Of a stretch of 64,000 nt of DNA, positions 14,686-34,872 are shown piece after piece (the stretch's first letter is position 1; every line of letters starts with the position of its first letter). The notes under the pieces are model-generated. The model was not told where the DNA came from and did not search any database. It saw only the letters and a program-made list of their open reading frames with translations. This DNA is from Vermamoeba vermiformis (lineage: Eukaryota), in the NCBI GenBank assembly GCA_045837725.1, contig JBEWZL010000179.1, positions 558,001 through 622,000 of the forward strand. Reading direction: 5' to 3'. A program made the position numbers and the translations under genes.

Positions 14686-14856
14686 TCTTTAATTAATTTT
14701 ACTAATTTGCTCGAGCATTTGATGGTTTGCTTGTCGTTTGGCGGGAAGAATGAAAATTCGATCCGTATTTTTTACCCTTTTAATTTGATTTCATGTCGGT
14801 TACCATAACAATCAATCATTAATTAATTAGATGATTTAACAGAAGTACTTGCAAAG

Positions 14857-17250
14857 ATGATGCAAAAGCTGCTAGCGTCCAAAACGGATGCACTTCGCAC
14901 GATCTCTCTTGTAGTCGGAGCTTTTATGCTGCTTGGCATGGGTAAGTCTATGAAAGTATTAATTAATACAATATTAAGCTACCATAACGCATCAAAATGC
15001 AATTAGTGAAAGATCTCAAAATATGAAAAATCGCAATCTTCACCAGAATTTTCAAAAATATTTCCCATATCGTATAATACCACACAATATAATATAGTGC
15101 ATATATTATTCTGAATTATACGAATTGAAATTATTTGATCGGAATTTTAAAACCGGAACAGATCCGACGAGAAAAATACGTTTGTGAACCTGCTCTTTGA
15201 AAGCTCATACAGCATTATACTGACATTAATTTTCATCAGGCACATTATACAGCTATTCAACGTATTCGCCAGTGCTGAAAGTCCGATTAAATTATTCTGA
15301 AACTGAAACAAATGCCGTTAGCGCTGTTGGAGGCCTTGGCGCGTAAGTAAATTCATTTAATATGCTTTTTAATATGATAATAAATTATAATTTTCAAGGT
15401 ATATTGGAGCTATTCCCGTTGGATTATTTTACGATCGTTTTGGACCTCGGTGGACTTTTCTTGGCGCTGGATCTCTCATATTTAGTACGACTTAACGCAC
15501 TAATATTGATCCAAATATATACTAATAATTTATGATTATTATAGTCGGTTATTTTTCGATGTTCGCGGCACTTCAAGGCTGGATCATGCAGAGTGCTTTC
15601 TTTGTCGGACTTTATTTCTGGATCGCTAGTACGTAGAACAATCTAAAAGTAAATTAGCGATAATTAACTTATTTAAATAGTTCTTGGCAGTGTTGGTACA
15701 TTTGAAGCAGTTTTGGCTACGAACACGAAAAATTTTAAATCGCAACAACGCGGCAAAGTACGGATCCAAACACCAACGCAAAATAATATAATAATTAATT
15801 GTTATTTAGGTCGTTGGAATGACATTAGGAGCCTTTGGGTTAAGTGCTGCAGCCGTGACTCAAGTCTTCAAATTTTTCTTCGCAGAGAACGAGAACATTG
15901 ACGGATTTTTGCTGTTTTTGAGCATCGCTTTGGCCTCACTTTCCTATTTAGGAATGTTGGCTGTTCGACACGTAAGTTTCGTCTGTGAAAAAATTATAAG
16001 TGACACGTGTCAAGTTGCAACAACTAACGCGCATCATTTTGTTAGCTCCCGCCTGAAGAAAATAAACCACAAAGTAAATCTTTGCCAAAATTTAACGCAA
16101 GATGACTAACCTAACATTTCCCTTTTTTAGAAATGGTGAGGACGAAGTTGGACTCTGATTCAGACGAGATGCTCGATGAAGATGAGCTGTTATTTGAATA
16201 TGACGACGAGACGACAGCACTCGACGATGAAAATTCCAATTTAGGAAGTCAAATCAACAGACCCAAATTCGGCGACTTGACTGGACTTTCATTGATCAAA
16301 GAACCACAATTCTTCGTGCTATGGATCACTGTATTCTTTATTGGAGGTGTAAGTGGCACTCAGACCACGCTAATATGGAAATATTCCTAATATGGTAATA
16401 TCTTATCAGGCTGGCTTGTCGTTTTTGAACGTGTTAGGCGGGGTTGTAAAATCTTGGCAAATTACAACTTTAAACCGCTCAACTTACGTTATAATATCAT
16501 CATTAGCCAATTTTTGCGGTCGTTTAGTATTTGGAAGCTGCGTTGATTTTGTGTAAGCTCCGATCTAAATCCACATCCGAGTCAATTTTTTTTGAATTAA
16601 CGAGCCAATTTATTATATAGGCGTACAAGAGGCATTCCAACTATTATATTGTTGATACCAGTAGCGTTGATTATGGCTGTTTTCCAACTGATGATGGCTT
16701 TCATTACGAATTGGTTCTTGTTGGTCGTCGCTACTTTCGGCATCACGTTTGCATACGGAGGTAAATTCAGCCTAATAACTATGATACGATTAGTACTAAC
16801 TCGACACCTAGGAATGTTTGCCGTGTATATTTATTGTATCAATAGTTACTTTGGCGACAAACATTATGCGCAAAACGTTGGTTGGCTCGGTACGTAAAAT
16901 TTCACTGGAATCTATTACTTTCTTATCGTTCTAATGCACATGTAGTGTTATTATGCACATAATAATTAATTTTATTGCGTTTAGGTGTTGCAGTTGGTAG
17001 CGGAGGATTTTTGTTGAGTTTTATTGCTGGTAGATTGTACGACAACAACGTGCCCGTAGAAAATCAATCAACGCATCAATGCTTTGGTCAAGTGTGCTAC
17101 ATGTACGGATTTATCATTACAGCGGTGTGTTGCTTGTTCCCAATTGCACTTGTGGTGTTCTTGTCAAGGCGTGAACGAGAAAAAGATCAATTCAGACAAA
17201 AGCTCGAAGTGTTTTCATTCACAAGAGTATTTAATATTAATTCTAATTAA
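14857..17250 (+). CDS. MFS transporter, nodulin-like/Mch1-type; intact copy
   Basis: GTLYSYSTYSPVLK..., GAIPVGLFYDRFGPR (MFS motif A-like), NFCGRLVFG and AGRLYD, plus many hydrophobic helices across about 12 exons. Confidence 0.9.
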
Positions 17251-17290
17251 ACTAAAGTAAAAACAACAAAAATGAGATTATTCTACCATT

Positions 17291-19937
17291 TCAAACTTGT
17301 TTTTGCACAACTGTTTCCTCAGGAGTGAATTCTGCATCTTGGAAAACTGGTGCAAAACCAAAGTACGACTGATATATGGGTGACACTATTGCACTTGCTT
17401 CCAATACACTGGCACGCTTGGTCATTTCCTCAGCCTCTGTCTTAGCGTCTTCTGCACTTTTCTTTTGGGTCAATATCTCTAGCACTGCTTCAACTGCCTT
17501 CTCCATTTCCACTTGTTGTGCCTCTGTTCTACTTGACAGTCTAACAAGCTCAAGTTGTGGAATAAAGGCTGTAAGTTCACTTAAATTTGGTTGTTTTGCC
17601 TTGTCCACAGCAGAAATCATAGCGTCGTGGAGCCCCTGCATAAATGAATAATGGCACTCCAAATTATTAATTAACATACCTGTGCAGTTTCAGGCACTAC
17701 AGAAGCTAACCCAATAAAGTAGAAATTTGGAGCTTTGAGGACAGTCAATGCATTGTTTGCAACCTTGGGCCCATTGAACTTTGATACATCAGTTAACTGA
17801 ATACAAAAATCAATATCATACCTTTCCTTTGTTTTGTTTGGCCTGGAATCCAATAAAAATATCTTGACCATTCAGTTTGGCAGGCAACACTATGTCTGCA
17901 AATTCAGATGACTTCCCATCAATTGTGATGACTTGCTTCTCCCCAATTTCTTTAAGAAGGGCAGTGTTAGCAGTACTAAGTTGCTCAGTTAGCACTACTA
18001 CACCGTTCAGAACCACCTGCATTGTAAATGAGTGTTTGCAGTAAGTCTAATTAACTCCTACCTTAGCAGTTTGAAGTTCGGCAGGCAAATTGGTGCAATT
18101 GAAAATATCTCTCAGTTCAACCTCTGTACTTCCTTCACTCACCAACTTGTATCTTGCGTAAATACTTGCAGCTGCTGCATGCTCAAAGCATTTGCCTTTG
18201 ATGTTACCATCTTCAACTGAGCAGTTGGTATGCAGAATTAGTGTGCTTAGTGAAATATCAAATGGTTTCCAATGCTTAGAAGTCACAGTAGTTTGTAACA
18301 GAGCCAGGGGCTTGAAAACATCATTGTAGGAGTAAAGAAAGGGTCGAGTGTACTTCTTTGTATTTTCATCAATTTTAGTCCACTGAGTCAGATAGCCTTC
18401 TTCTTCCAAAATTTGTGGTTCCAAATCTATATCAGAAATCTTTTCTTTGATTTTCATTTGCCAACAAAGTGCTGCTTTAATGTCCAGTAGTTCAATTGCT
18501 TGCTCAATCCTCTTTTGTTCTTCTGCACTCGTGCAATTTTTCAATTTGTCATTTAACAAATCTGAGGATGTGGCACTGGGGAAGAGACCTTCAAGTCTGG
18601 CTTCTAAAGAAGCTGAAACGTCTTTCAGTTCTCGTTCAAGGTCGTCTAATACAAATAATTGTCTTGTTGATGTAGAAATTGCATTCTTTGTGCTATGGTA
18701 ATCCTCCAGCTTAATGAGATACGCAAGGGCAACTTCCATCATAATTTCAATTCCTCGTGGTAAACCAAAAGCTCTGTAAAATAGCTTCACAAGAGTTTTA
18801 GCTGTTTGATCATGCAAGACATCTGCCTGAGTTGAGTCTGTTGTGGGAGTCTTGAACAACGATTTGCCCAAGTACTGCTTAGCTATTACATCCAAGTATT
18901 TTGCATTAAGTAAATTCTCCATTGAGGCTCTAACTAGTTCATAGCTTGTTGCGGTTTTAGGAAAACTTCCGGGAACAATTGTGCCAGTAACCATCCAAAA
19001 AGCTGCACTATTGCTAAGTTCAAGTCTTTTTACAGCAGCATCTCTTAGCAATAAGTAAATAAGATCCTCTGTTTGTGTGCCTGCAGATCTTTTGCTGTAA
19101 TACTACCATGAAATTAATAAAGTCTGGAGAATTATTGAAACTTACTTGACACTCATCAATTCCAAAGATGAGCAGATTTCTGTCAATGCCAGATACATCA
19201 AAAGGGTACTTTGTTGGTGGTTTGCAGAATTGGTCAACACATGCATTGAATAGGTCAACACATTCACGAACTCTATCAAACTTGTCTCCAATGAATTTAG
19301 CTGTAATAGTAAATGGCTGGCCTCTGAATATGACTTGTTTATCGCTGAATCGATCAAGTATGCTGTCTTTAATCATGTCACTGATTGCTGCAAATAAAGT
19401 AAGTAGTGTTTAGCGAATTAGCTGGACTTACAGTTCTTTTCAGATAGTTGTGAAGAAGAGCTTATAATAATCATTCGTTGCATGAAAACAGTCTTGTACA
19501 ATGCATTAACAAAGGCTTGTCGATCGGTTAATGTTCCTTTTACACCCCTCCAATTGCCGGACTAAAAATTTTTCAATGATCTGAGGATCATTAAGAGCAT
19601 GATAGCTCCATTCTATCAATAATCGAGTTTTGCCACTGCCAGGGTTCATTGTTTGAACTGCATAGGCTGGTTTTTGATTAGGATCTAGGAAGTTACTGTA
19701 TGCAGCCTGCAATAGTGCCATGACGATTTCCTCTCGATTGAGAAATGGTGCACGTGTGGGCGAACCAATCCATTCATATTTGTAAGGTGACATATTCGGC
19801 AACGGGAACAGCAATTGTTTGCCGTTGATGTGAAGAGTTAGAACTTCTTGTGTTCGCAAAGAAGGAAAATCTGCGACAGTGAGCTTTTGCGCGGGTGTGT
19901 CTTGCGCTATCTCGGTCTTGTCCTGTGGAAACGCCAT
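17291..19937 (-). CDS. P-loop NTPase (STAND/Crinkler CR-NTPase-like) fused to putative PD-(D/E)xK nuclease, copy A; apparent +1 frameshift near 19545
   Basis: Walker A NPGSGKT, Walker B LLIFGIDECQ, GLPR motif. C-terminal GKCFEH...FADIVL...IGFQAK. Five GT-AG introns splice in frame. Homology to copy B requires removal of one base near the GGGG run at 19545-19548. Confidence 0.75.
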
Positions 19938-20330
19938 TTTGGAAGAGGTGAAATAAGCTGCATGAAAGATCAGCGCGTGACAAACTGGATTTCAGGCCAA
20001 CTACTTTACCTGCGGTCGGAGGTTTGTTCCGTAGAGATTTACGTGCAATTAAAGGTTTATTAATGATCTGGGTGCCTGATAAAATATATTATTACAATAA
20101 AAATAATATTTGAATAGTTAGATATAAAATTAAATTAATTAATTCATCCGCGCTATCTTTGGATTTAAATTCTATCGCAAAAAATTAACCTATATTTGTT
20201 GAACCCAAATTATTGGTTTGCAAATGCAAATATCAAGAGTCTTACCTAATCCGAACACCTTCGCCGGCGAGAGAGGCCTCTTGGTGAGGCCAGTCTTGAT
20301 TATCGAGGACAAAAAATGCCTAAGCATAAG

Positions 20331-22128
20331 TTACTCGGACTGCTGAGGTGTGGTAGTGAGCTCACTCGTATTTGAATACAAATTACAAGCGGGGATCAGC
20401 TCGGTCAGTTCCCAAACGACAATAGAGCCCTTAATAGTACCAGCGACTACGTACTTCTCATCGTGCGAGATATCAGCTTGGTTAACTATCTCATTGGGAC
20501 CTTCGAGCTGATCCACAACGGCGGATGTGTCCGGGTTGATCAGCGTTACAGTAGGACTGCCGTGAATCAACGAAGCTACCAATCCGCTCTTTGACTATAA
20601 TATAAGTATTAGTACCATAATTAGCAATGGCATTAGTTTTTGAAAACGTTCAAACGAGATCCAAGATCGTTTCAAAATTTCGAATTGTTTCTTACCATAG
20701 ATCCTGTCATGGAATAGGTTTGATTGAAAAATGATACTTTAAAGGGCTCTAAATTAGAATATGATAGCTTCTTAATCTGATTATCGTTCGTATTGAGCCA
20801 AACGGTCTTGTGCTCGGTGTCCATAATAAAATTCATTAACGGACAGTTCGTAGTCAATTTCTTTGCCTTCATTAAATTGAAATTAAATTCTGGCGGCAAA
20901 TTCTTGTACCTAACCATTAACGACCATTAGTACAATTCAATTCGTCGGATCACATCCAAAAAGCATTAAAAAATTGCCGAATAGCTTGTACGAAACAAAT
21001 ATTATAAAAAACTGGTGCATTGATACAATGTTTTCAATTAATAAATTAAAATCATTAAAATCTGTAGAAATGTTTTTCGTTCTTACGCGCATCTGGCCGA
21101 CGCAATCACCGGTCAACAAATACCCATCATCGCCGACTTCAATCGTGCTAATAGAGTTACAAGGGTGTTCTTTCTCGCTCCACGAATCATCGTCTTCTTC
21201 AGTCTTCGTGCGGCGGAAGTGCTTTTGAATTATGTTACCGCATGAAACCGGATGCAGTTGATGCCAGTGCCGAGTTTATAAGAGGTAATTTTCTTTTGTT
21301 GTGCAACATTCCACAATCGAATGATATTGTCTTTGCCACACATAAGCAAATGGTCCTTATTGAACGACCTAGCAACGAGGGTCAGATCCAGATCTTGCAT
21401 CTTCCGTATCATTAGGATTATATCTCAACGTACCAATCAAAGTCCACTATTCCGTTCTTATGCGCATTCAAAGTGAATTTGACTTCATTTGTCGCGCAGT
21501 CGTACAGCATCAAATTGCCGTCGTTGGATGCACACGTCACCACCTAAAATCACATTAGTCACACTACCACATTACACATGCAATATTATGTGATTAAAAT
21601 CCAAAATATTACAATAGCTTTGTTAGTACGGTACTATAATCATAACGTGACCACGCGATATCTATTAGATGTGGAGACTAACTTACGGAGGTAGATCCGG
21701 GCAAAAATCTGACGTTGGTGACGTAAGATTTGAACGGCTGGCTCATCTTGACCATGACGTAGCTATTCATGCATTTCATATTAATCACGGTTTATACGAA
21801 CTAATGCTAGACTTACGTCTTTTTAGGCGTTATTTCATCGGATTTTTGCGGAGATAAATTTATCGGTGTTGTGATAAATTAACGGGCGTTGTTTCGGCAC
21901 TTGTTTTCAAATTACCATTTGGTAATACTGATTCTTTGATAATAAGTGTATCCTTGTTATTATAATTGTTGGCTTCGATATTCGTTGATTTTGTTAAGTA
22001 TTCTCTGGAAGACGTTTTGGTGACCGCACCATTTTAATTTCTGTCGCAGCTTCTTTTGGCTTGTCTTCGAATTTATATTATTTTCTTTTTTATGATCGTC
22101 TTCATTAGTTGTTTCGAGATCTGCTTCA
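20331..22128 (-). pseudogene. Decayed copy of the WDR13-like WD40 gene
   Basis: Near-identical peptides to 28206-30788, but it lacks the MNNNQFIIGD...VIL segment (deletion near 21220) and the 5' end is deleted. Confidence 0.85.
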
Positions 22129-23580
22129 ATTCTGTTCAACGCATCATCGCGGATCGTCTCAGCGCGACCGACACAAATATCACGTGACATTGTCGTGAAG
22201 TCCCACGCAAGTTGAAGTTGTTTGCGTGCAAATCCTCTATTTGCCAAAATAGGAAATATTGATTCGTCGAATTGTTGTCATCGCCGTCTCGTAACTTTTT
22301 GAATTGGTCAGAGGCCTCGATGAGATCGCCTGATTGGCAAATAAATTTCTAATGCCGACTACGTATCTCGTAGCCCAATCTAAAGGCACTGCAGGTTGAA
22401 TCACGAGCAACGGATCGACTGGATCGTGCGCACCCACTTCGGCCCAGTGCGGAATTTTTTCACCAGCCCTTGCGTTAATGATCACAGTAGCGGCTAAATA
22501 TACGCCAGTATCGGTCCATCCATTTGAACTGATGTCGTTGAACTTGGCCAACAACCGACTCATCACGCTGAACCCATCAAGTTCGTTCCAATACTGCATG
22601 TTCCAACTCCCTCCGCCTTTGATGGGAGGCATTCTATCAGCAGGTAGTGCCAGCCTTAATCCAGTGGCACTCGTTTGGTCTTGTATAGTGTAATCGTCGG
22701 ACGGCCACGGCAGCGCCAAGTTGCTCTCGGGCGGGTTCCAATCCGGCACCATCAGCAAGGCAATCAAGCTCACGAGGAGTAGAACCAATGCTGCTACTGC
22801 TAACACGATGAATCCAAATTGAACAGCTATTATTCCGCGCGATTTTTGATCGATGCTGTCGTCATTAGCGTAAAGTGAAATGATCGGTGAGATCCGCAGC
22901 GTGTACACGATCAAAACAGCCAAAGCTATCAAAATATTATAAGAATGATCGTTAATAGATATTATGCAACTTACCTATTTGAATAATAACGGCTATAACA
23001 GAGAATGCAATATAAGTTTGGATTGTTCGCCACATCCACTCCCAATCTTCGTTAACTTCGCCCGATGGCTCAACAAAGAATCCCTGAGAGTATTGTTATC
23101 ATATATCACGTATATCCGTTTGTATTTGCATACCTTTAATTGGCTGGGAACGTACCACATGACTACAATATTAATAATACAAATGAATAGATCGCGGCCA
23201 AAACATGGCCTGACATGCGATGACGCATAAACACAAACCTAAATAATTGATTAATATAATGCTATTATTTATGATAGTTTACTTACCAAGGCACGCAAAG
23301 GTGCAGTTTAAAAATAGTTCGAGGGTCATTTTCATTTCTTTTAAATAACGCGTTTTAATGTTAAAAATAGCATTAAAATATCTCAATATGCATAAATAAC
23401 TTACTGATATTTTTTTTAATTTAGTTTGTCGCGCTAGCAAGTCTGACGAAATGATCAGATCGTCTTCTTCGACTCCAACATCAAAATCATTGTAGTCCTC
23501 CGGCAAATCTTAAAGAGCTCGATGTCTTCATCTTCCTCATGGAAGGTGTAGCTCATTCGTGCAGTCGTTGTGCAGCATCT
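22124..23580 (-). pseudogene. Truncated copy of the membrane-anchored hydrolase gene
   Basis: Matches 33016-34660 with internal deletions and frameshifts (~22240-22340, ~23320). The whole catalytic half is missing. Confidence 0.88.
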
Positions 23581-23854
23581 GCGACGTCAAAAAATAGTAA
23601 AACTTACGCGACAATTTTCAATAACACCATTGTGTGAGGAACACAAACCAAGAAAGGTTAGGCGTAATGTGTGGCTAGCCTCACTTGTACTTAACTATGA
23701 CGAATTGAACGACTAAACGGTTACTTTCGGTTGTAAATTTTAGATCTGCTCTAATTTCCCAGGTAGACTATCGTCGACTGCTACTAGACAAGGCTCGACA
23801 CAGCAAATATTTTAAATTATTTATTAATTTAATTTTTTTGTCTTCTTTAGTTTA

Positions 23855-24937
23855 ACACGGTGCTGTTGGAGGTCTTGGCGGTAAATTCATTTAATCAGCT
23901 TTGGTAAGTTAAATCATTTAATATAGTTAATCTTATAATTTTCAAGGTATATTGGAGCTATTCCCGTTGGATTATTTTCCGATCGTTTTGGACCTCGGTG
24001 GACTTTTCTTGGCGCTGGATCTCTCATATTTAGTACGACTTAACGCACTCATACTGATCCAAATATACTAAGGATTAATAATTGCTATAGTCGGTTATTT
24101 TTCGATGTTCGCGGCCCTTCAAGGCTGGATCATGCAAAGCGATTTCTTTGTCGGACTTTATTTCTGGATCGCAAGTACGTAGAAACAATTCAAATTAAAT
24201 TAGCGTGCAATTAACTTATTTAAATAGTTCTTGGCATTATTGGTTCATTTGAAGCAGTTTTGGCGACAAACACGAAAAATTTTAAATCGCAACAAAATTA
24301 CAACTTTGAACCGCTCAACCTATGTTATAATATCATCATTAGCCAATTTTTGTGGTCGATTAGTATTTGGAAGCTGCGTTGATTTTGTGTAAGTTCCGAT
24401 CTAAATCCACATCCGAAACAATAATTTTTGGCATCACGTTTGCTTACGGAGGTAAATATAACGTCATAAATACTATATGATTAGTATTAACTCGAATCTA
24501 GGAATGTTTGCGGTCTATATTTACTGCATTAATAGTTATTTTGGCGACAAACATTACACACAAAACGTGGGTTGGCTTGGTACGTAAAAACTCATTCCAG
24601 GAATTACGCATTGAAATATTAATACTATATGAGATGCATAGGTAATTATTGACGTTTTTTGTTGTCTTTAGGTGTTGCAGTTGGTAGCGGAGGATTTTTG
24701 TTAAGTTTTATTGTGGGACAATTGTACGACAACAACGTGCCTGGAGAAAACGAATCAACACATCAAAGCTTCGGCCAAGTGTGTTACATGTACGGATTTA
24801 TCATCACAGCAGTGTGCTGCTTGTTCCCAATTGCACTCATAGTCTTCTTGTCCAAGCGTGAACGAGAAAAAGATCAATTCAGACAGAAACTCGAAGTCTA
24901 TTCATTCACAAGAGTATTTAATATTAATTCAAATTAA
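23855..24937 (+). pseudogene. 5'-truncated, internally deleted copy of the MFS transporter
   Basis: Starts mid-exon 2. Jumps from the equivalent of 15748 to 16458 at ~24295, and from ~16580 to ~16738 at ~24420. Confidence 0.9.
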
Positions 24938-24957
24938 AAGCAAAGGAGCATCTCCAA

Positions 24958-27704
24958 TTACTTATTGGACTTCTTTGAGTGTAAAGCTTCCTTCTCCTGA
25001 CTAACCCTGGCTGAACAACCAAGCTCCTTGTCTCCAAAAGCAGATGCAAATCCAAAGTAGGTTTGGTAAATTGGGGATAAAATGTCTTTTGCAGACAAGA
25101 TACTGACTCGTTTGGTCATTTCTCTCACTGCCTTCTCTGCTTCAGCCGTGCTTTGTTTTGGTTCTAGTTTCTCAACTAAATTTACCAGCTCCTCACACAA
25201 TGGGATAAGCTTTTCTAGGTCGTGCATTGCTGATTTCATTGCTGTTTGCAGGTCTTGCAGTTCCACTTCAATTTTGTCTAATGGAAGAGCAGCCCTCGCC
25301 TTGGCTTGTTTTTTTGCAATTGTGATCATTTTTGCATGTACCTAGGATGGAGATTAGGCTGGTAACAGTGTCTGATCTGAATTCTTACTGTTGCTGCGCT
25401 TTGAGGTACAACTTCTAACCCTACAAAGTAGAAGTTTGGAATTTGAAGAACAACCAAAGCATTCTCAGCAGCTTTCATCAAGTTGAGCTTGAATTTCATT
25501 AGACTATAATAACAAAACTAATGACATACTGATCCTTTGCTTTGTTTTGTATGGAAACCAATAAAGATGTCACTGCCATCCATCTTTGCAGGCATGAGTA
25601 CATCAGCAAACTTAGATGATTGTTCATCAATGGCAATAACTTGTTTTTTTGCAGTTTCTTGCAAGATTGCTGCTGAATTGCCATTGAATTGCTGCTTCAG
25701 TACAACTACTCCCTTTAAAGTCACCTGAAACTCAATCAGACATTTCAAACATGCCAAGGGCTATTGGACTCTATGCTTACCTTAGCAGTGTGAAGCTCTG
25801 CAGGTAAAGTCTTGCAATCAAAAATGTTCTGCAATTCAACTTCAGAAGTACTATCTGCCTGGCTTGCCAAAATGTAGCATGCATAAATACTTGCTGCTAT
25901 TGCATGTATAAAACTTCTGCCTCTAGTCTTGCTGTTGTCAAGAACATTTGAGCAAAGGGGATGAATAGTGAGCATGCTATATGAGATATCAAATGGCTCC
26001 CAATGTTCAGAGTGCACTGTGCTCTGCAACAGTGACAAGGGTTTGGTTGCATCTACATGTGAGTGCAGAAATGGTCTGGTGTACTGCTTTTTGTTCTCAT
26101 TAATCTTTGCCCACTGAATTAAGTACCCTCTTTCTTCTAATACTTGAGGTGCCACTTCAAGATGGGGGAGGTTTTCTTTGATATCAAGTGGCAAACAAAA
26201 CGCTGCTTTAATGTCCAAAAGTTCAAGTGCTTGGGATACCAGCTTTTTTTCTTCTGCGGTGCATCTTTGCATTCTGGCCTCAATTTCAGGAGTAGTTGCA
26301 GAATGTGGGAATTCTTTGGCCAGTCCTTCATCCAATGTGTTTGAAATTCCTTTTAGGTAATTTTTCACCTTTTCAGGATAAACATCAGTACAGTTAAGCC
26401 ATTTGTTCATTGAGTAGATTTTCTCTATGTCCACCAGGCCTTTGTATGCAACTTGCAATAAAATCTCTATTCCTCTTGGTACACCAAAAGCTTGATAGAA
26501 CAGTCCAATGAGGATTTTGGCTGTTTGTTTGTGTAGGGCACTAGTACATTGAAGTGATTAATTTAACATACAAGTAAAAAGTTGTTACCTTGAAGTAGAG
26601 CTTTGTACTTCTGTATTTGGTAAGCATTTGCCAAAATATTGTTCTGCAATGGTGTTCAAGCAAGTTGCAGAGAGCAGATTCTCCATTGAAGCTTTGATCA
26701 AGTGGTAACTGCTTCCCTTGTCTTCATATCTCCCTGGTACAATTGTACCAGTTACAAGCCAAAAATAGCTGGAGTTTCTAAGTTCTATTCTTGCTGTAGC
26801 AGCAGAGCTCAGTACCTTGTAAATAAAGTCATCTTCTTTGGTGTCAGCTTTGGATTTGTTACTGCAAACCTGCCAAACATAGTTAGATGAGTATTGGAGT
26901 GATTTGATTACTTGGCATTCATCCAGACCAAAGATGAGCAGCCTCCTTTCAACTGTATCAACTTCAAATGGATACTCTGTTGGTGGATCACAGAACTTGT
27001 CAACTAGAGCACCAAATAGATCAATAAACTCTGCTACACTGCCAATAAAGCTATTCTTCCAGGCTGTGTTGATTTTGAGTGTTTTTGCTTTGAAAGAGAC
27101 TTTTTCATTTGCAAATCTAGCCATTATATTGTGTTTAATGATTGCCTTAAGGACTAACAAGGATAAGCATGCAAACCCTCAGTGGTGGGAACTTACTTTC
27201 ACTTGGATCTGACTCAACTGGCAAGTTTTCTGCATTCATGATCAGGATTTGTTGCATGAAAGCTGTTTTGTACAAGGCATTGATAAAGACTTTTCGATTC
27301 AATTCTGTTCCATCAACATTGCCTGCCAATAAAAACTCTTGAACAATCTCAGGATCATTGAGAGCATGGTAGATCCATTCTATCATGAGACGAGACTTTC
27401 CACTGCCTGGATGCATAGTTTGAACTGCATAAGTTGGCTTCTTATTAGGCTGGGAAAAATTGTCGTATGCAGCTTGCAACATTGCTGAAAGAATTTGCTT
27501 TCTGTTGAGAAATGGTGCGCGCTCTGAAGATCCAGTCCATGTTGCTTGAGCATCAGTGCTCATGTCTGGCAAAGGGAATGGCAAAATCTTATTGTTGATT
27601 TTAAGCTGAAGGACCGTTTTGGTTTGAAGGTAACGAAAATCCTCAGGTTTTTTCATTTGCAGTTTTATGTCTTGGCTTCTTTTAGAAACCGTTGGAGCTG
27701 CCAT
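24958..27704 (-). CDS. P-loop NTPase + nuclease-like protein, copy B; reading frame intact
   Basis: Walker A HPGSGKS, Walker B LLIFGLDECQ, GVPR. C-terminal GRSFIH...FADVLM...IGFHTK. Six introns, five at positions comparable to copy A. Confidence 0.8.
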
Positions 27705-28205
27705 TGTTTGCCTCGTAATTTTTGCAGACGTGAAATAGCCTTTTGGGAACGTTAATTTTTTTAATGTCTGAATCCCATCGTAATCTTACCTGGGCAATGC
27801 GTAGCTCTTTCGTTCAATTTTAGCAACGGGGGAACTCCTAGATTTAATTATTAACCCACGAAAAAGAGATCGAATAATTTTTTTATCTCTTTATAAATTA
27901 TTTTAGTTCTACGTTATAGAAAAAACAAATGGTCGATCGGCGCTTCTATTATTCTTTAACGAGTTTTAAACAAAATCTTACCAAACGCTTTTTTCATTGT
28001 CGACTGCAACGCCAGTTTAGCGAGCCCAGCCCTAATGGGCAATAGTACACGCCCAAGCATACCTTTTTTAAATTATTGCAATGATAAATAATTAATTGCA
28101 AGCGTTGTGTTTGTGAGTTCACAAAACGGTGCAAATAAAACAGATCTCGAGAACGAAAATTTTGTAATCAAGATTATCGCGCGTGGTCGCGGTAAAAGTT
28201 TATGA

Positions 28206-30788
28206 TTATGAAAGACTATTAACAAGAGTTTGTAAATCGTTTTGAATTGATCGTCGTTTTTTGCTGGGCGAATGCGGCTCCGGAGTTTGCTCGGTTAGCT
28301 CCCAAACGACAATAGAGCCCTTAATAGTACCAGCTACTACATACTTCTCATCGTATGATATGTCAGCTTGGTTAACTATCTCGTTAGGACCTTCGAGCTG
28401 ATCCACAACGGCGGATGTGTCCGGGTTGATGAGCGTTACAGTTGGACTGCCGTGAATTAATGAAGCAACTAAACCGCTCTTAGACTATAATACGATCAAC
28501 ATTAGAAAAATAGGGTAACAAGATCGTCCTATTAAACAGCTCAAGCGAGATCCATTATCGATTTCTAAATTAGGAAAAAAAAGCGTACCATAGATCCGGT
28601 CATGGAGTAAGTCTGATTGAAGAACGATACTTTGAAGGGCTCTAAATTAGAATATGACAGCTTCTTAATCTGATTATCGTTCGTATTGAGCCAGACGGTC
28701 TTGTGCTCCGTGTCCATAATAAAATTCATTAGCGGACAATTCGTATTCAATTTCTTCGCTTTCATCAAATTAAAATTAAATTCCGGTGGCAAACTCTTGT
28801 ATACCTAATATTAAAAAGCTTGGTCAGTCACGAAAATTCCGGATCACATCCAATATTTTTTTGTAAAACCGATAATAGTGCTTTGTAAGAGCTACTAAAA
28901 TGTATATAATATTAATGTAAATATTTACATTAATATCCGATGCAAAATAAATGTGTATTTTAAACCAAGAAAAGAAGATCTACTTACGCGCATCTGGCCG
29001 ACGCAATCGCCAGTCAACAAATACCCATCATCTCCAACCTCAATAGTGCTAATTGAGTTAGTGACAGGATGTTCTTCTTCACTCCACGAATCATTGTCCT
29101 CGGAGCTCGAGTCCTCGTGCGGAGGAAATTCCAAGATGACACTGCGAGCATTGCTGATATTATTTACATGTATGCTGCCCTTAGCGTCGCCAATGATGAA
29201 TTGATTGTTGTTCATCTGCAAATGCAATAAATGCAAAGATTAGTACGATCACTTAAATGTGAAAATGAAGCGTAAAAAGGTTTGATTTTTCATTTTCTAT
29301 CGCCGGTCAAGTTGAGTTTTTCCATATTTAGTAAGGAAGTCAACATAAACATTATAATTATTCCTTTTTAGGAAATTATGTTTTCGTGTACGTACCGGAT
29401 GAAATCGAATGCAATTGATGCCAGTGCCGAGTTTGTACGAAGTAATTTTCTTTTGCAGCGCGACATTCCACAGTCGAATAATATTGTCTTTGCCACACGT
29501 AAGCAAATGATCCTTATTGAACGACCTACACAAACAAATAACATCACGTGTCAGATATAGATCTCGTACGTGGGGGTATTAGTAGTAGTTCAACGTACCA
29601 ATCAAAGTCTACTATTCCATTCTTATGTGCGTTCAATGTGAATTTGACTTCATTCGTCGCGCAGTCGTACAGCATCAAATTGCCGTCGTTGGATGCACAC
29701 GTCACCACCTAAAAAATCACATTAGGCATACTGCCACATTACACATGCAATATTATAAATCGTGTTAATACTATTATTATGATTAGTTATTGCGTTTCAG
29801 TTTCACTTACAGAACTCGATCCAGGTAAAAATCTGACTTTGGTGACGTAAGATTTGAACGGCTGACTCATCTTTACCATCACATAGCTGTTATTCATATT
29901 AATACTTACTGTTATATTAATATGTGTATAGTATATATTCGCTTACGTCTTTTTAGGCGTTAATTCTTCGGGTTTTTGCGGAGATAAATTTATCGGTGTT
30001 GTTTCGGCGCTGGTTTTCAGACCTCCATTTGGCAGATCAGTATCTTTGATAATTAATGAGTCCTTATGACCGTTGTTGTTATTATTATTGGCTTCTATAT
30101 TTCTTGATTTCGCTAAGTGTTCTTTTGACGAAGTTTTTGTGACTTGATCTGGCCGCACAATTGTAATTTCTGGCGCAGCTTCTTTTGGCTTATCTTCCGA
30201 TGGTTTATCTTCGAGCTCGGCATTATTTTTATCAATTTTATCTTCTTCATTATTTGCGTCGAGATTTGCTTCAGTTTTCGTGGTTTGATCTGGCTGTTCG
30301 GATTCACCAGAATTATCTTTGTTAGCTTCACCTGAGTTTCCAAGTGGCTCTATAGATCCGTTCAATGATATAGTAGATAAAGAGGAGCTACTGCTAGTAT
30401 TAGAAGCAAATGAACTGCCGCTTAAGCTGAGTTCTGGATTTCGTCTTGGGCTTGTCGGATCCAAGTCTATATTTACAAAAGATGACGTAAGACTAGCCAA
30501 ATCATGAGTAGATCTATTTGGGGAGTACGGTTCAGACTCTTGAGTAGAATCCCATTCGCTGTCACTGCAGATCAATAAATTAAATTAGAAAAATTTTAAA
30601 AAAATCAATAAGATGCAATTATTGATGATTGTCATCATAAATATGCGAAGTATTAATTTTACAGGCAAACAAATATTATACACATTAATGGCGGTTAGTT
30701 CAATTAATTGAAAATTTTTAAATTTTAAATAATGTTGATATTATGCCTTTAATATCGACTCAAATTACCTATCCTCGTCGCTATACAT
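28206..30788 (-). CDS. WD40-repeat protein resembling WDR13, with acidic/Ser-rich N-terminus; intact copy
   Basis: HKNGIVDFDWSFNKDHLLTCGKDNIIRLWNV, CIRFHPMNNNQFIIGDAKGSIHVNNIS and a terminal VVAGTIKGSIVVWE repeat resemble WDR13 as recalled. Start MYSDEDS at 30788. Confidence 0.8.
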
Positions 30789-31279
30789 ATTACTAACAGA
30801 AAATTCTACAATAAGCAATAATCAAGATCAGATCTTGTGCATCAGCGCGTTGTGCAGTTGATCTTGTCAACAATGTCAAAGCAATTATTAAATATATAGC
30901 TTTGATATGTGTTTGTAATAAACGAAATATTTTTCAAAGATTTAAATGCGCAAGTTCGTTATACAGCAACACGTGCTCATTTCCCGATTTGGATCTTTAA
31001 ACTAAAAGCGATGCCTATCTTTCTAAAGCTGTTACGACATGTATTTATAATAATAAAGCACAATGGGGGCTGCTTCTAGCTCGAGTTCAGACTTTGATTA
31101 GATCAAGAAGGAGAAAAAGGAACGAAAGAGGGAGCGAAAGGTTAGCAACCTAAAGGAAAGAAACCAAAGAAAGAAGACTCTTTAAGTAATCCGACCTATA
31201 AAAATGTGCCTTCAATGACTACCAGCATTTACAACCCAAATTGAATTTGATCTGCATTTTTAAAAATTAAATTTTGATT

Positions 31280-34200
31280 TTAATATTTTTCGGGACATTT
31301 TTCTCGCACGCAAGGTCCATTAGAGCAATATTGTCTTATTATTCCTTCTTTCAAAAAATCTCGGATCTGGTTTTGCACCTCAGGTTCTCTGTTCATTAAT
31401 GTTAGCATACCAATTCATTTTTATGGTCATGATTACTGTTACCTTCTCGGGCACTCGTGTGTATCGTATATTTTAGGTGGCGCAGTATTATTGAACGGTT
31501 CCCAAGGTACATTTTCGTAGCGCCACTGAGCGATGCCAGATCCGTAGAAATCTCCTTTATGCTCTAAATATTACCGTATTAGAAAATTATATGGTACAGA
31601 GGGCTCCTTTAAATCATACCAGGCACACCAAATATAGGTCTAACTTGAGGACCGACATTGGATGCGTTGTACGCACGCGCCATTATTTCAGCGCCCAAAT
31701 AGGATACTTGCGCATCGCCGAAGGCCACTAAGCAAGTTAATATTAGATGATATAGACTATTTTAGCCCAAAAGATGCTTACTTTGTAACAAGATCTGTTT
31801 CTGAGCCATGCCAGGTGGAGGGTTTGTAATAGAGCTCATCCAACCAGAAGGCTCGCCTTGGTCCCATAATGGCTGCATCAGAGCTATAACGACTAATTGG
31901 TGCGTCCAAGTATAGAATTGATAGCTCAAGAGCTGTTGGTACCGCGTAAAGTCGACGGATCGAGGTAAAAGAACGGAGTAAGGGCCACCAGGAACGCCTA
32001 GTAATATATATATTAATAATGTACACGATAAATAACATCGATTTAAGACGATTTGTAACAGAATTTAATTTTGATGTGGATTTGCTTACCTAAAACACCG
32101 CGCTTCAAGTCTCGTGAACTTGCGAAATAAGCGGCACCAACAATACCACCCTGCGAGTTACCATAATATCCTACCGGCGTATCTTTCGAAATCAACGGTA
32201 CGTTGGCCATGTACAGCGCTGAGTCTTTGGCGAGCATCTCTTTCATGAATCGCAACATGACTGATTTGAATACAAAGCCTTGCAACGTCATTTCAGGCAG
32301 CGAAACAAAATTAGACATGTCGCTCATCAGCCACTTGGCGACGATAGGCACGTCGTGTTTTGCCATGCCGTACCAGTCCATCGCTAACAGGACGTAATTG
32401 TAGTTGTTGGAAATACGTCGTAAATGACGCGTCATTGCCTCGGAGCGACTTCCTAAAAAGGAAAAAATTGATCAGATCCCGTTCAAATTTTGCATTTTCA
32501 TTTTTATCTAAAAGTAATTTTATGCCTTAATATTTGCTAATATTTTTAGGAATTAGGCATTCAGAGAAACAAAGATTTTTAGGAAATTTCATATACGCGT
32601 ACCGAACAAGCCGTGGCCATACTGCAAGATCATTTCCGCTGGTTTGTTGCTGAGTTTCAACGAGCACGGCACACGAATCAAAAACTGCGCTTTTTTCGTG
32701 AACAACGGCTCTAACTTGGTAACTCGCTTGCCATCGACACGCGGCAGAATTGAACCGCGCTCCATACTTGACAAATAATACGGTGCATTGATTTCACCTA
32801 ATCAAATTAGAATATTAATAATTTGATTATGAGCTAAAACCAAGCTATTTTTCGGCGGAAAATGTTCGAATAAAAAAAAGAACTGATTTTGGTTTGAGCT
32901 CCATTTCTTAAAATAATATTTTCTTTTTGCGTACCGTGAATAGTCCTGGCCATCACATCAGTAGTATTTCCTTCGCAAGAATCTTCTTCAATCAAATGAA
33001 TTTTGTACGTCACGTCTTCAACTCTATTCAACGCATCATCGCGCATATTTTCAGCGCGACCGACGCAAATATCACGTGACATTGTGGTGAATTCCCACGC
33101 AAGTTGGAGTTGTTTGCGTGCAAATCCGCCGTTTGCCAAAATAGGAAAGACTGATTCGTCAAAGTGCTGTCGTTCAGGGGTCTTGTCACCATCGTCATCG
33201 CGCAACTTTTTGAACGCGTCACTGGCCTCAATGAGATTGCCTGATTTGGTTACTAAATTTCTGATGCCGACTACGTATCTTGTGGCCCAATCTAACGGCA
33301 CTGCAGGCAGAATGACGAGCATTGGATCGATCGTGTCATGCGCATCGACCTCGGCCCAATGCGGAATTTTTTCGCCAGTCTTTGCATTAATGATCACTGT
33401 AGTTGCATTTGCAGCCATATAAATTCCGATATCGTTCCAGGGAATTAATCCTGACGAGCTGATTTCACTGAATTTGACCAACAGCGGACTCATCACGCTG
33501 AAGCCATCAAGTTCGTTCCAATACTGCATGTTCCAGCTGCCTCCACCTTTGATGGGAGGCATTCTATCAGCAGGCAGTGCCAGTCTCAAGCCAGTAGCAC
33601 TCGTTTGGTCTTGCACGGTGTACTCGTTAGACGGCCACGGGAGTGCCAAGTTGACATCGGGCGGGTTCCAATCAGGCGCGACCATCACTAAAGCAATCAA
33701 GCTGATAAGAAACAGCACGAAAGATGCTACAGCTAGAACAGCAAATCCAAATTGAACGGCCACTACCCCGCGAGATTTCCGATCGATTTTGTCGTCATTT
33801 GCATAAATTGTGATTAACGGGGAGATTCGCAGTCTGTACACGATCAAAACAGCCAAAGCTACCTTAACATTAGGCAAAAGTAAGAATAAGGGTATATTAT
33901 ACGACATACCTATTTGTATAATAACGGCAATGATAGAGAACGCAATATAAGTTTGAAGCGTCCGCCACATCCACTCCCAATCCTCGCTAACTTCGCCTGA
34001 AGGCTCGAAAAAGAATCCCTTAATTTAATATTAGTATATCTATGCTATTACTATGTGTTTTTTCGTACCTTCAATTGGCTAGGAACGTACCACATAATTA
34101 CAATGTTATAAATACAATTTATAAATAAATAGATCGCGGCCAAAACGTGACCAGACATTCGATGACGCATAAATACAAAACCTGCATATTTAATTAATAT

Positions 34201-34650
34201 TATGCTAATGTTGATTATGCTACAACGTACCAACACACGCAAAGGTGCAGTTTAAAAACAATTCGAGGGCAAACGGGAACGCAACCATTAATCTTCCGGT
34301 AATTGAATAAAATCCCAGTAACGGGAATAATACTCGCATTGATAAAGCTATAAATATGATCCATCCTGCTAAAACACTGGCGTTGATGATCTGAATTTTC
34401 CACGTTAGTTTCAAATAACTTTTAAGTTAATAATTTTAACGTTAAAAACCCCATAAAAATCTATTTAAAAGCGTAGTCAACTTACGGATAATTTTTTAAA
34501 TTTAGCTTGTCGCGCAAGAATGTCTGATGAAATGATCAGATCGTCTTCTTCGAGCTCTACATCAAAATCGTTATAATCCTCAGGAAGATCTTTAAAGAGC
34601 TCGGTGTCGTCATCTTCCTCATGGAAGACGTAACTCATTCGTGCAGTCAT
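31280..34650 (-). CDS. Multi-TM N-terminus fused to a bacterial-type alpha/beta hydrolase (lipase-like) with N-terminal PWPS/LDGFS domain
   Basis: Acidic N-tail and several hydrophobic helices, then LPWPSN...ELDGFS...PAVPLDWATRYVVGI...LQLAWEFTT, QYGHGLFG, nucleophile elbow YYGNSQGG, and a C-terminal HECPRRE His. Confidence 0.8.
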
Positions 34651-34872
34651 TGTGCTGCATCCGTGAGCAAAAACGAAAAGAAAATTGCGCGGGTAATTGG
34701 AAGCCAAAATTTGTCAGCCGACTTGAATTATTTAACAATTTTATACATGAACACCATTATTAATATTAGCGGAACTCGCGAGTCACATAGCGTGTCCTGT
34801 CGCTTCCCACGGGACGCACGCCATGATTTTTCTTCGTAGAAACCAAAACCAATAGATCAGCAATTCAACACA

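What the first reader, a model, noticed from the sequence alone, without database searches (positions are those of the whole stretch)
17250..28290. Idiomorph-like variable cassette: homology between duplicates collapses exactly between the MFS stop and the WD40 3' end
Seen: the last MFS exons differ at 8 of 88 residues, and identity stops at the stop codon (17250 vs 24937). On the other side, WD40 identity stops after WELTE (~20400 vs ~28290), with unrelated C-tails and spacers. Between these points the NTPase-nuclease proteins differ at 9 of 36 residues even around Walker A, and roughly half elsewhere. The embedded gene is therefore much more diverged than even the dead flanking copies. Inference: ancient divergent alleles or swappable cassettes at a fixed site, reminiscent of fungal het/NLR loci or mating-type idiomorphs, or hypermutation linked to CpG decay.
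Basis: partly seen in the sequence, partly recalled or inferred. Interest (0 to 1): 0.75.

Follow-up and report, generated by a model that had tools for sequence, protein, structure and literature searches.

The report
Old gene pair inside younger duplication
Two neighbouring copies of an unannotated ATPase/nuclease-like gene are two to four times more diverged than the duplicated genes around them and carry a DNA-methylation footprint, but they sit side by side on one chromosome and are not alternative alleles.

Summary
The window carries a direct tandem duplication, unit A 15323-23579 and unit B 23862-34661. Its flanks (MFS transporter, WD40 gene, a fourth gene) have silent divergence dS 0.3-0.65. 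The embedded minus-strand P-loop genes (A 17291-19937, B 24958-27704) are 49% identical in protein, with dS 1.3-1.8 and introns that cannot be aligned.

Both P-loop genes have complete GT..AG models, ω about 0.22, five shared intron positions, and are sister clades. Reads of the same organism hold both at similar depth and bridge the A/B junction. They are therefore paralogs in cis, not idiomorphs or swappable alleles.

The knife-edge boundaries are mostly where the neighbours' coding constraint ends. The flank copies were under purifying selection (ω 0.01-0.2) until recent deletions killed one copy of each.

My best reading (0.4) is an old duplication whose flanks were later homogenised by gene conversion while the core escaped. 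Capture of two old alleles, reciprocal loss from an ancestral tandem pair, and a faster silent rate all remain open.

New here: only the two P-loop gene bodies in 64 kb are CpG-depleted (o/e 0.38-0.48 against about 1.3). Distant relatives in metagenome contigs show the same depletion.

The parts
15323..17250 (+). Duplicated 3' part of the intact Nodulin-like MFS gene (MFS-A). The gene starts at about 14857, outside the duplication.
   Evidence: Three-frame reading. RNA read joints 15484>15545 and 16758>16810 have GT..AG ends; 16347>16410 was reported with TG..AG ends and one extra letter. Weak Pfam hits: Nodulin-like E 1.1e-3, MFS_1 E 6.8e-3, NFD4_C E 0.03. The left end of the duplication lies in exon 2.
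17291..19937 (-). P-loop gene A: 6 exons, 808 aa once one base at 19561 is skipped. Walker A GSGKT, Walker B-like hhhhDEC, helical middle, putative E / D / QxK nuclease-like motifs, coiled C-tail.
   Evidence: Gene model with 5 GT..AG introns of 43-45 nt. The X1 contig lacks one base at 19561 (474.6 of 474.6 depth), which opens the frame. X8 spliced contigs match exon 3 at about 99%, and a loose end at 17822 carries the start of exon 5, confirming the 43-nt intron.
19938..20330 (.). Spacer upstream of gene A. CpG-rich, with no detectable similarity to the spacer upstream of B.
   Evidence: Global z -0.2. Local alignment: 72/300 shuffles reach the observed score. CpG o/e 0.8-1.9.
20331..22131 (-). 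WD40-A, a decayed copy. It has an aberrant C-tail, has lost about 250 nt including an intron and part of an exon, and lacks its 5' part.
   Evidence: Exon identities to WD40-B are 80-95%, with one stop in a poorly aligned exon.
22124..23579 (-). Gene4-A, a decayed copy of an unannotated gene. Its 3' part is deleted and the reading frame is broken between ORFs 22237-22974 and 21960-22277.
   Evidence: No Pfam family.
23580..23861 (.). Junction between units A and B.
   Evidence: No similarity to 34662-35400, to 14700-15322, or to the B-only segment 30277-33015. The X1 contig 22615-23962 bridges it, with 33 letters left out.
23862..24937 (+). MFS-B, a decayed fragment. It lacks exon 1 and most of exon 2, and the equivalents of 15749-16458 and 16595-16734.
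24958..27704 (-). P-loop gene B: 7 exons, 822 aa, open frame. It has one extra intron (26541-26588). The helix glutamate and the Q of QxK are replaced by I and H.
   Evidence: Gene model. Motif columns. No RNA contig of X8 lies on it.
27705..28205 (.). Spacer upstream of gene B, CpG-rich.
28206..30566 (-). WD40-B, the intact copy. Seven exons were modelled and the start lies further upstream.
   Evidence: Open spliced frame with one terminal stop. Introns 28485-28588 and 29216-29395 are seen as joints in X8 and X13. WD40 Pfam hits.
30277..33015 (.). Segment present only in unit B. It holds the 5' part of WD40-B and the 3' part of gene4-B, and corresponds to a deletion in unit A.
   Evidence: X8 spliced joint 31563>31620 has CT..AC ends, as a minus-strand intron would. 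A second joint, 31389>31445, has TG..CT ends.
33016..34661 (-). Gene4-B, the duplicated part of the intact copy.
   Evidence: 396-aa ORF 32834-34024. dS against the A copy 0.48-0.65, ω 0.17-0.25.
17200..19800 (.). CpG-poor tract that coincides with the body of gene A.
   Evidence: CpG o/e 0-0.77 in 200-nt bins, and 1.0-1.9 on either side. TpG/CpA o/e 1.34-1.42.
24900..27700 (.). CpG-poor tract that coincides with the body of gene B.
   Evidence: CpG o/e 0-0.61 in 200-nt bins. Only 2 CpG in 26001-27000.

Best explanation
A and B are old paralogs of a rare, unannotated eukaryotic P-loop NTPase / nuclease-like family. They lie in cis inside a tandem duplication of the block MFS - P-loop gene - WD40 - gene 4.

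The most likely history is this:
1. The whole block duplicated long ago, at the age now shown by the core.
2. Both copies of every gene stayed functional for most of that time.
3. The flanks were later made alike again, in patches, by gene conversion between the two units.
4. The P-loop core escaped conversion. Either it was already too diverged, or converted products were selected against because the two genes had taken on different roles. A keeps the putative E / D / QxK nuclease motifs; B has lost two of the three.
5. Recently the redundant flank copies were destroyed by deletions, leaving MFS-A, WD40-B and gene4-B intact.

Shown:
- the duplication and the step in silent divergence;
- intact models for both genes, with purifying selection;
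- the cis arrangement;
- young identity patches in the flanks;
- CpG depletion limited to the gene bodies.

Inferred:
- the order of events and gene conversion as the homogenising process;
- nuclease activity;
- methylation as the cause of the CpG depletion.
For: - Step in dS: flanks 0.31-0.65 against core 1.28-1.83 by four methods.
- Selection on the core: ω 0.22-0.31 across the three methods that ran, and 0.20-0.32 in the five of eight 100-codon windows where dS could be computed.
- Gene structure: A and B have complete GT..AG models with 5 shared intron positions.
- Phylogeny: (A, P0001) is sister to (B, P0002) with 97/98 support.
- Cis arrangement: an X1 contig bridges the junction, and both cores have similar word depth.
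- Conversion is active at this locus:
  - Per-segment dS runs 0.12, 0.24 and 0.66 along MFS.
  - There is a 70-nt perfect run across an exon/intron border and a 55-nt run in WD40, where 0.002 runs of 60 nt or more are expected.
  - RNA reads of another strain (X13) join B-like and A-like WD40 exons: 29216>21242 in 5 reads and 21761>29947 in 2 reads.
- Selection on the flanks: ω 0.01-0.2 at dS about 0.5-0.7 shows both copies were selected until recently. In the youngest-but-one patch, MFS E5+E8, ω is 0.64, as expected once one copy is dead.
- Tandem family genes also occur in a distant relative (L004).
Against: - The right flank has a rather even dS (0.47-0.72 over about 5 kb), and the last MFS exons give 0.66. 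One event that reset both flanks but skipped the core is awkward for a contiguous conversion tract. It fits capture of two old alleles, or reciprocal loss, at least as well.
- The confidence intervals are wide (for example 0.36-1.49), so that evenness is not firmly established.
- X1 may be the sample the window was assembled from, so it is not independent support for the cis arrangement.
- No other genome with this locus could be read, so the history is untested.
- No expression of B was seen.
Confidence: 0.4

Rival explanations
1. Captured alleles. A and B were long-lived alternative alleles at one MFS-WD40 interval, with flanks kept alike by recombination. An unequal exchange between the two haplotypes at flank dS about 0.6 placed them in tandem.
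For: There are two fairly discrete age classes, with even flank dS on both sides of the core. The boundaries lie at the edges of the intergenic interval. In the same organism's reads there are signs of structural variation at the 5' end of gene A: X1 loose ends at 19844 and 20102. A water-metagenome contig on B exon 1 is only 92% alike, while another on exon 3 is 99.5% alike.
Against: Both genes are at full, similar depth in X1, and the junction is bridged. No single-unit haplotype was seen. No further allele types appeared in the protein searches. This history needs an allelic core divergence of dS about 0.7-1.2 at the time of capture. The B-type already exists as an ortholog in another organism (P0002), which fits paralogy as well.
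Confidence: 0.2
2. Reciprocal loss. The ancestral interval held a tandem pair A-B. The whole block duplicated at flank dS about 0.6. Unit 1 then lost B and unit 2 lost A, so the survivors are older than the flanks.
For: The locus is deletion-prone, with at least five deletions in the dead copies. Family genes lie in tandem in L004. This history explains the unrelated upstream spacers and the clipped WD40-A tail.
Against: There is no relic of a second family gene in either unit: tblastn of both proteins found no HSP outside the two gene bodies. It needs two clean deletions that spared the neighbours. In B the stop lies only 20 nt from the MFS-B stop.
Confidence: 0.15
3. Same age, faster clock. 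The core duplicated together with the flanks but accumulates silent changes 2-4 times faster, because the gene bodies are methylated (CpG decay, or generally higher mutability of methylated or silenced DNA).
For: CpG o/e is 0.48 and 0.38 in the cores against about 1.3 in the flanks. TpG/CpA is raised to 1.3-1.5, and the tract matches the gene bodies.
Against: Depletion is shared by relatives at 28-31% identity, so it mostly predates the split. CpG sites can add roughly a tenth of sites at most (my estimate from composition). Transitions to transversions in the core are 439:523, not transition-rich. The CpG-rich upstream spacers are also unalignable, though there is no flank intergenic comparator.
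Confidence: 0.1
4. Assembly artefact. Two haplotypes or homeologs were stitched in tandem.
For: X1 shows a minor haplotype at about a third of the depth at several places. The window carries a 1-base error or variant at 19561.
Against: An X1 contig spans 22615-23962 across the junction at full depth. Contig 24901-27464 is exact. The copies differ by large deletions and by dS 0.3-0.65, which is not allelic-scale. X1 may not be independent of the assembly.
Confidence: 0.03
5. Cassette replacement. One unit's P-loop gene was overwritten by a distant paralog from elsewhere.
For: The step in divergence is sharp.
Against: A and B are each other's closest relatives apart from their orthologs. The diverged block includes non-genic spacers that a paralog elsewhere would not share. 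At this divergence, conversion from an ectopic donor is unlikely (inference).
Confidence: 0.03

Closest known systems
Crinkler-type (CR) 'NTPase + HTH + REase' modules, defined by Zhang et al. 2016 as summarised in PMC5289972 (passages read; the original paper is not held)
   Same: The domain order is N-terminal P-loop NTPase (Walker A GSGKT/S, Walker B-like DEC), a helical middle with a helix/hairpin element, then a segment whose motif order is helix-E ... D ... QxK. It is eukaryote-only so far. The nearest language-model clusters carry Mucoromycota and Oomycota labels (a lead only).
   Different: There is no header or ubiquitin-like N-domain and no signal. There is no sequence or fold match to any solved or Pfam family. 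The REase and HTH folds were not demonstrated. The genes sit among housekeeping-type genes. One relative carries a SAM domain instead.
Fungal mating-type idiomorphs and het (heterokaryon incompatibility) loci (from my own knowledge)
   Same: A highly diverged block lies between conserved flanking genes, with sharp edges.
   Different: Both forms are on one chromosome. They are homologous along their whole length, with shared introns. No alternative haplotypes were seen and no known het or NLR domain was found.
Mosaic tandem duplicates shaped by gene conversion, as in plant R-gene clusters, MHC or KIR (from my own knowledge)
   Same: Identity between the copies is patchy, from about 65% in 150-column windows to 99% in one exon. 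There are young tracts, a core that stays diverged, and redundant copies that decay.
   Different: Only two units are present. The core shows purifying rather than diversifying selection (ω about 0.22). The flank age is rather even.
CpG depletion as a footprint of heritable cytosine methylation on gene bodies or transposons (from my own knowledge)
   Same: CpG o/e is low, TpG/CpA is raised and GpC is normal. The 5' end is spared and the body is depleted.
   Different: In this 64 kb it marks only one protein-coding family, and does the same in distant relatives, within otherwise CpG-rich DNA. No transposon features were seen.

Membership tests
Idiomorph (mating-type-like) | Alternative forms occupy the same locus on different haplotypes | tested here: not met
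   Both forms lie in cis. The X1 contig 22615-23962 bridges the junction, and both cores have word depth 450-617. X1 may be the assembly's own sample.
Idiomorph (mating-type-like) | The alternative forms lack homology to each other | tested here: not met
   390/797 residues are identical, 5 intron positions are shared, and the two are sister clades.
Idiomorph (mating-type-like) | Conserved flanks with sharp borders | tested here: met
   Identity ends at 17251/24938 and resumes at 20399/28289.
het / NLR (STAND) locus | NACHT or NB-ARC NTPase with a C-terminal repeat domain, or a HET domain | tested here: inconclusive
   No Pfam family was found for any exon or relative. The only hints are weak Foldseek rows to NLRP7, NAIP5 and NLRC4 at E of 0.078 or more. 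No repeat domain is present in the models.
het / NLR (STAND) locus | Many alleles, or trans-species polymorphism, in populations | tested here: inconclusive
   Only an A-type (P0001, 97%) and a B-type (P0002) were found in other samples. One metagenome contig on B exon 1 is 92% alike. No population data are available.
CR NTPase + HTH + REase module | P-loop NTPase with Walker A and B | tested here: met
   Motifs GSGKT/GSGKS and hhhhDEC occur in both genes and in relatives. This rests on motifs only; the fold was not modelled, because introns split the domain.
CR NTPase + HTH + REase module | Winged helix-turn-helix between NTPase and nuclease | tested here: inconclusive
   The AF2 model of P0003 (pLDDT 82.7) has helices followed by a beta hairpin at 120-157. 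Foldseek gives only weak wHTH rows, at E of 1 or more.
CR NTPase + HTH + REase module | PD-(D/E)xK (REase) fold with catalytic residues | tested here: inconclusive
   Motif order is helix-E (13 of 16 rows), D in FAD (6 of 6), and QxK (5 of 6; B has H). The fold searches were filled by the N-terminal helical hairpin. No contiguous natural sequence of this part alone was available to fold.
CR NTPase + HTH + REase module | N-terminal header (Ubl) domain and secretion signal of Crinkler effectors | tested here: not met
   Only about 60 residues precede the conserved NTPase block in A and B, and no Pfam hit was found. This lowers the claim 'is a Crinkler effector', not the claim 'has a CR-like toxin-type module'.
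Tandem duplicate with inter-copy gene conversion | Patches of much younger identity than the rest, including non-coding sequence | tested here: met
   Per-segment dS is 0.12, 0.24 and 0.66. There is a 70-nt perfect run across an exon/intron border where 0.002 runs of 60 nt or more are expected.
Methylated (CpG-decayed) gene body | Low CpG o/e with raised TpG/CpA and normal GpC, limited to the transcribed body | tested here: met
   The same pattern is seen in L001-L005.
Methylated (CpG-decayed) gene body | 5-methylcytosine actually present on the DNA | not testable with these tools
   No bisulfite data or modified-base calls are available.

The most novel reading that the evidence does not exclude
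A and B are the two halves of a former two-allele self/non-self or toxin-type system built on an NTPase-nuclease. A keeps the putative catalytic E / D / QxK motifs; B has lost two of the three. The alleles were kept apart by selection for a very long time, were then captured in cis, and the whole family is held under targeted DNA methylation in several aquatic eukaryotes. The divergence island is maintained by selection against homogenisation.
Probability: 0.12. Interest if true: 0.75.

Novelty: new member of a known kind. Interest (0 to 1): 0.42.

Why it matters
The locus is a clean natural example of layers of different age inside one tandem duplication. There is an old core, a middle-aged flank, and young conversion patches, and the redundant copies have been caught just after their death.

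Apart from the locus history, it exposes a rare eukaryotic NTPase / nuclease-like family that no domain library covers. In CpG-rich genomes its gene bodies, and only those, carry the footprint of cytosine methylation, and this holds in distant relatives too.

If methylation is confirmed, the family would be a handle on how a host singles out one class of protein-coding genes for a mark it otherwise keeps for selfish DNA. It would also bear on whether these genes are toxin-like or conflict genes.

Tried and rejected
- Whole genome: none is held.
- Earlier findings: none by place, sequence or words.
- Pfam: nothing on any P-loop exon, relative or gene 4.
- PDB sequence profile search: nothing below E 0.13.
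- Word-based protein search: none among longer proteins with exon 3 or exon 1. Only P0001 and P0003 among similar lengths.
- Cluster look-up: no names or taxa.
- Fold searches of the P0003 model:
  - Foldseek gave no hit at E of 0.001 or less.
  - Both VIA-align lists were filled by the helical hairpin 1-84.
  - The nuclease-like part was therefore not really tested.
  - It could not be folded alone, because introns split it in every natural sequence I hold. I did not read an intron through with a changed stop codon.
- Metagenome scan:
  - It found five distant relatives (28-31%) on 3-5 kb contigs.
  - None has MFS, WD40 or gene 4 beside it, so the 'fixed site' idea could not be tested there.
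- Sequencing runs:
  - No RNA holder was listed in the index.
  - The RNA reads of the same species label (X13) are only 90-95% alike (55 of the 56 reads laid; the other was 95-99% alike) and touch only MFS and WD40. They say nothing on P-loop expression.
  - X8 gave no contig on gene B.
- RIP-like mutation of the duplicated flanks: rejected. ts:tv is 254:251, the flanks are CpG-rich and ω is low.
- 'Born-truncated' MFS-B: rejected. Its 3' exons show ω 0.06 at dS 0.66.
- Zhang et al. 2016 could not be read. What I say of it comes from passages of PMC5289972.
- Paper supplements were not consulted.
The work it was meant to do was redone from coordinates.

Full report
WHAT IS THERE

The window is eukaryotic. 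Introns are short GT..AG (42-183 nt), GC is about 39%, and no whole genome is held.

Repeat finding and self-blastn show a direct tandem duplication. Unit A is 15323-23579 and unit B is 23862-34661. B carries 2.74 kb (30277-33015) that A lacks.

Each unit holds four elements:
- the 3' part of a Nodulin-like MFS transporter on the plus strand (weak Pfam hits);
- a minus-strand P-loop gene;
- a minus-strand WD40 gene;
- a fourth minus-strand gene with no known family.

Elsewhere the window holds a Kelch + protein kinase gene, a peptidase M13 gene, an SRR1 gene and an ABC transporter piece. No other member of the P-loop family is present.

THE OBSERVATION

High identity stops at 17251/24938, one base after the MFS stop codon. 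It resumes at 20399/28289, inside the last WD40 exon. In between, blastn finds three HSPs at 66-72%.

The last MFS exon differs at 8 of 87 codons. The WD40 C-tails are unrelated (z -0.4).

I built both P-loop gene models from coordinates. A has 6 exons (17291-19937) and B has 7 exons (24958-27704). All introns are GT..AG and 42-56 nt long. Five positions are shared, and one intron is present only in B (26541-26588). ORF fragments of several relatives begin just after that position, which suggests that the intron is ancestral and that A lost it (inference). The two proteins share 390 of 797 aligned residues.

The window's gene A has a frameshift in exon 1. The contig of the same organism's DNA run X1 lacks one base at 19561 (474.6 of 474.6 depth), and skipping that base opens the frame. 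Both genes are therefore intact on present evidence.

HOW MUCH OLDER IS THE CORE

Four estimators agree.

| Gene | dS | ω |
| --- | --- | --- |
| MFS | 0.31-0.36 | 0.18-0.21 |
| WD40 | 0.42-0.56 | 0.12-0.18 |
| gene 4 | 0.48-0.65 | 0.17-0.25 |
| P-loop pair | 1.28-1.83 (three estimators; YN00 failed) | 0.23-0.31 |

At four-fold sites 80/158 differ in the core, against 20/87 in MFS, 46/133 in WD40 and 41/108 in gene 4. Fisher's test against the pooled flanks gives p = 1.6e-4, and against gene 4 alone only p = 0.046.

Among codons with the same amino acid, 212/390 are identical in the core. The flank figures are 171/209, 255/343 and 181/252.

The P-loop introns, trimmed of their splice sites, show no similarity (z 0.3). 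Of the 12 flank introns tested, 8 gave z of 4.8 or more.

The excess is real and amounts to about 1.7-fold by four-fold sites and 3.7-fold by ML.

WHY THE EDGES LOOK SO SHARP

Per-segment dS beside the core is already 0.5-0.7. At that level short non-coding DNA is at the limit of detection. MFS intron 10 and WD40 intron e reach the observed local score in 37/300 and 20/300 shuffles. Introns b and f do so in 0/300, and the two upstream spacers in 72/300.

The left edge at the MFS stop codon is therefore where coding constraint stops. The P-loop stop codons lie only 40 nt (A) and 20 nt (B) beyond it.

The right edge lies inside the WD40 coding sequence only in copy A. One low-depth contig of a water metagenome (X4) joins 20391 directly to 28206, which suggests that copy A lost the normal tail by a deletion of about 84 nt (one contig, depth 3.3, a lead only).

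STATE OF THE FLANK COPIES

- MFS-B lacks exon 1, most of exon 2 and two internal blocks.
- WD40-A lacks its 5' part, about 250 nt in the middle, and the normal tail.
- Gene4-A lacks its 3' part.

Even so, flank ω is 0.01-0.2 at dS 0.5-0.7. This is far below the roughly 0.55 expected if one copy had drifted since the split. Both copies were therefore under purifying selection for most of their divergence, and the deletions are recent.

In the young patch MFS E5+E8 (dS 0.24), ω is 0.64, as expected after the death of one copy.

GENE CONVERSION AT THE LOCUS

Silent divergence along MFS runs 0.12, 0.24 and 0.66.

A 70-nt perfect run (15432-15501) crosses an exon/intron border, and a 55-nt run lies at 21491-21545. 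At 81% flank identity, 0.002 runs of 60 nt or more are expected.

RNA reads of another strain with the same species label (X13; 55 of the 56 reads laid are only 90-95% alike) join a B-like exon to an A-like exon of WD40 across splice junctions: 29216>21242 in 5 reads and 21761>29947 in 2 reads. The B-type joint 29215>29396 is seen beside them in 3 reads.

CIS OR ALLELIC

X1 contigs cover both cores at similar word depth (450-617). One contig spans 22615-23962 across the junction, and another matches 24901-27464 exactly. X1 may be the assembly's own sample, so this is not independent evidence.

X1 also shows a minor haplotype at about a third of the depth at several sites. It has loose ends at 19844 and 20102 that hint at an alternative sequence at the 5' end of gene A (not followed up, because only one lay was allowed).

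THE GENE FAMILY

An exhaustive HMMER search of 1.84 billion representatives with exon 3 of A found 15 proteins at E of 0.001 or less. One of them (P0011) is a repetitive protein that I set aside, and P0007 was too short to use. None carries a name.

In a tree of 16 rows, (A, P0001 at 97%) is sister to (B, P0002), with 97/98 support. P0003 and the rest fall outside. The 16 rows were A, B, P0001-P0006, P0008-P0010 and P0012-P0016.

A metagenome scan gave five distant relatives at 28-31% identity. One contig, L004, has two family genes in tandem, the second preceded by a weak SAM-domain match. None has MFS, WD40 or gene 4 beside it.

Motifs found:
- Walker A GSGKT/S;
- a Walker B-like DEC;
- a helix glutamate, present in 13 of 16 rows but absent in B, P0002 and P0003;
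- FAD, in 6 of 6 sequences;
- QxK, in 5 of 6 sequences, with H in B.

An AF2 model of P0003 (pLDDT 82.7) has a helical bundle, a helix/hairpin element and an alpha/beta C-part. No fold or sequence search gave a significant match. The language-model atlas puts exon 1 of B next to eukaryotic hypothetical proteins, and at 0.87 next to bacterial TniB / AAA_16 / AAA_22 clusters (a lead only).

The domain order recalls the 'NTPase + HTH + REase' module reported as the commonest Crinkler C-terminus (PMC5289972, passages read). Membership is not shown, and the header domain is absent.

Spliced contigs of run X8 match exon 3 of A at about 99%, and a loose end confirms the 43-nt intron after 17822. None lies on B.

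CpG FOOTPRINT

Across the 64 one-kb bins, CpG o/e is 0.69-1.53 everywhere outside the two P-loop genes. In 17001-20000 it is 0.34-0.63, and in 25001-28000 it is 0.05-0.66. TpG/CpA is raised to 1.2-1.5 in those bins and GpC is normal.

In 200-nt bins the poor tracts are 17200-19800 and 24900-27700. These are the gene bodies without their 5' ends. The upstream spacers are CpG-rich.

The gene bodies of L001-L005 show the same pattern (o/e 0.36-0.6), with a CpG-rich neighbour region of 1.6-1.9 in L004. The depletion therefore predates the A/B split. Transitions to transversions in the core are 439:523. CpG decay is real but cannot by itself explain the excess divergence.

VERDICT

The idiomorph or swappable-cassette reading is not supported, because A and B are old paralogs in cis under purifying selection.

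Why the core is older than its flanks is not settled. My estimates are:
- old duplication with later flank conversion, 0.40;
- capture of two old alleles, 0.20;
- reciprocal loss from an ancestral tandem pair, 0.15;
- a faster silent clock in the methylated bodies, 0.10;
- the remainder on artefact, replacement or something unforeseen.

The rather even flank dS counts against my first choice, though its intervals are wide. The decisive data are the same interval in other strains and species.

Noticed in passing
window 17200-19800 and 24900-27700; L001-L005: Only the two P-loop gene bodies are CpG-depleted in the whole 64 kb (o/e 0.05-0.66 per kb against 0.69-1.53 elsewhere), with raised TpG/CpA. 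Distant family members on metagenome contigs show the same depletion beside CpG-rich neighbours.
   Followed up: partly
window 19561: The window has one base more than the X1 contig of the same organism (474.6 of 474.6 depth). In the window this breaks exon 1 of gene A. It is probably an assembly error or a strain variant.
   Followed up: yes
window 19844-20102: X1 contigs run off into unlike sequence (255 letters or more) behind 19844 and before 20102. This hints at an alternative haplotype or an insertion at the 5' end and promoter of gene A.
   Followed up: no
window 28045-28142 and other sites: X1 carries a minor haplotype at about a third of the depth (for example 159 of 523). Its variants at 28045-28142 are the ones seen in the water metagenome X4. 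The organism may be heterozygous or polyploid.
   Followed up: no
window 15100-17091, 21076-21739, 29044-29707: Of the 56 RNA reads laid from the run filed under the same species label (X13), 55 are only 90-95% alike to the window. That label seems to cover deeply diverged strains.
   Followed up: no
window 27141-27626 and 26454-26826: The water-metagenome contig on exon 1 of gene B has 40 differences in 486 nt (92% alike). A contig on exon 3 has 2 differences in 373 nt. Diversity along gene B is uneven in the environment, or a further copy exists.
   Followed up: no
L004 4854-5416: A distant family member is preceded by a SAM-like domain (Pfam E 7e-4, below the cut-off) and lies about 3 kb downstream of another family gene. 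The family forms tandem arrays elsewhere too.
   Followed up: partly
window 59182-59602 / 61446-61834 and 60862-61165 / 63108-63411: There is a second, more diverged tandem duplication (68% identity, period about 2.25 kb). The ORF at 60597-61181 has no Pfam family.
   Followed up: no
window 48859-49888: A proline/glutamine/glycine/tyrosine-rich repeat ORF (322 aa) built of degenerate 21-78 nt repeats. No Pfam family.
   Followed up: no
window 37772-40678: A 968-aa ORF on the minus strand combines Kelch repeats with a Tyr/Ser-Thr-type protein kinase domain.
   Followed up: no
window 17251-17290 and 24938-24957: The MFS and P-loop stop codons lie 40 nt (A) and 20 nt (B) apart on opposite strands, so the 3' ends of the transcripts must overlap in antisense. 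The CpG-poor tract starts exactly there.
   Followed up: no
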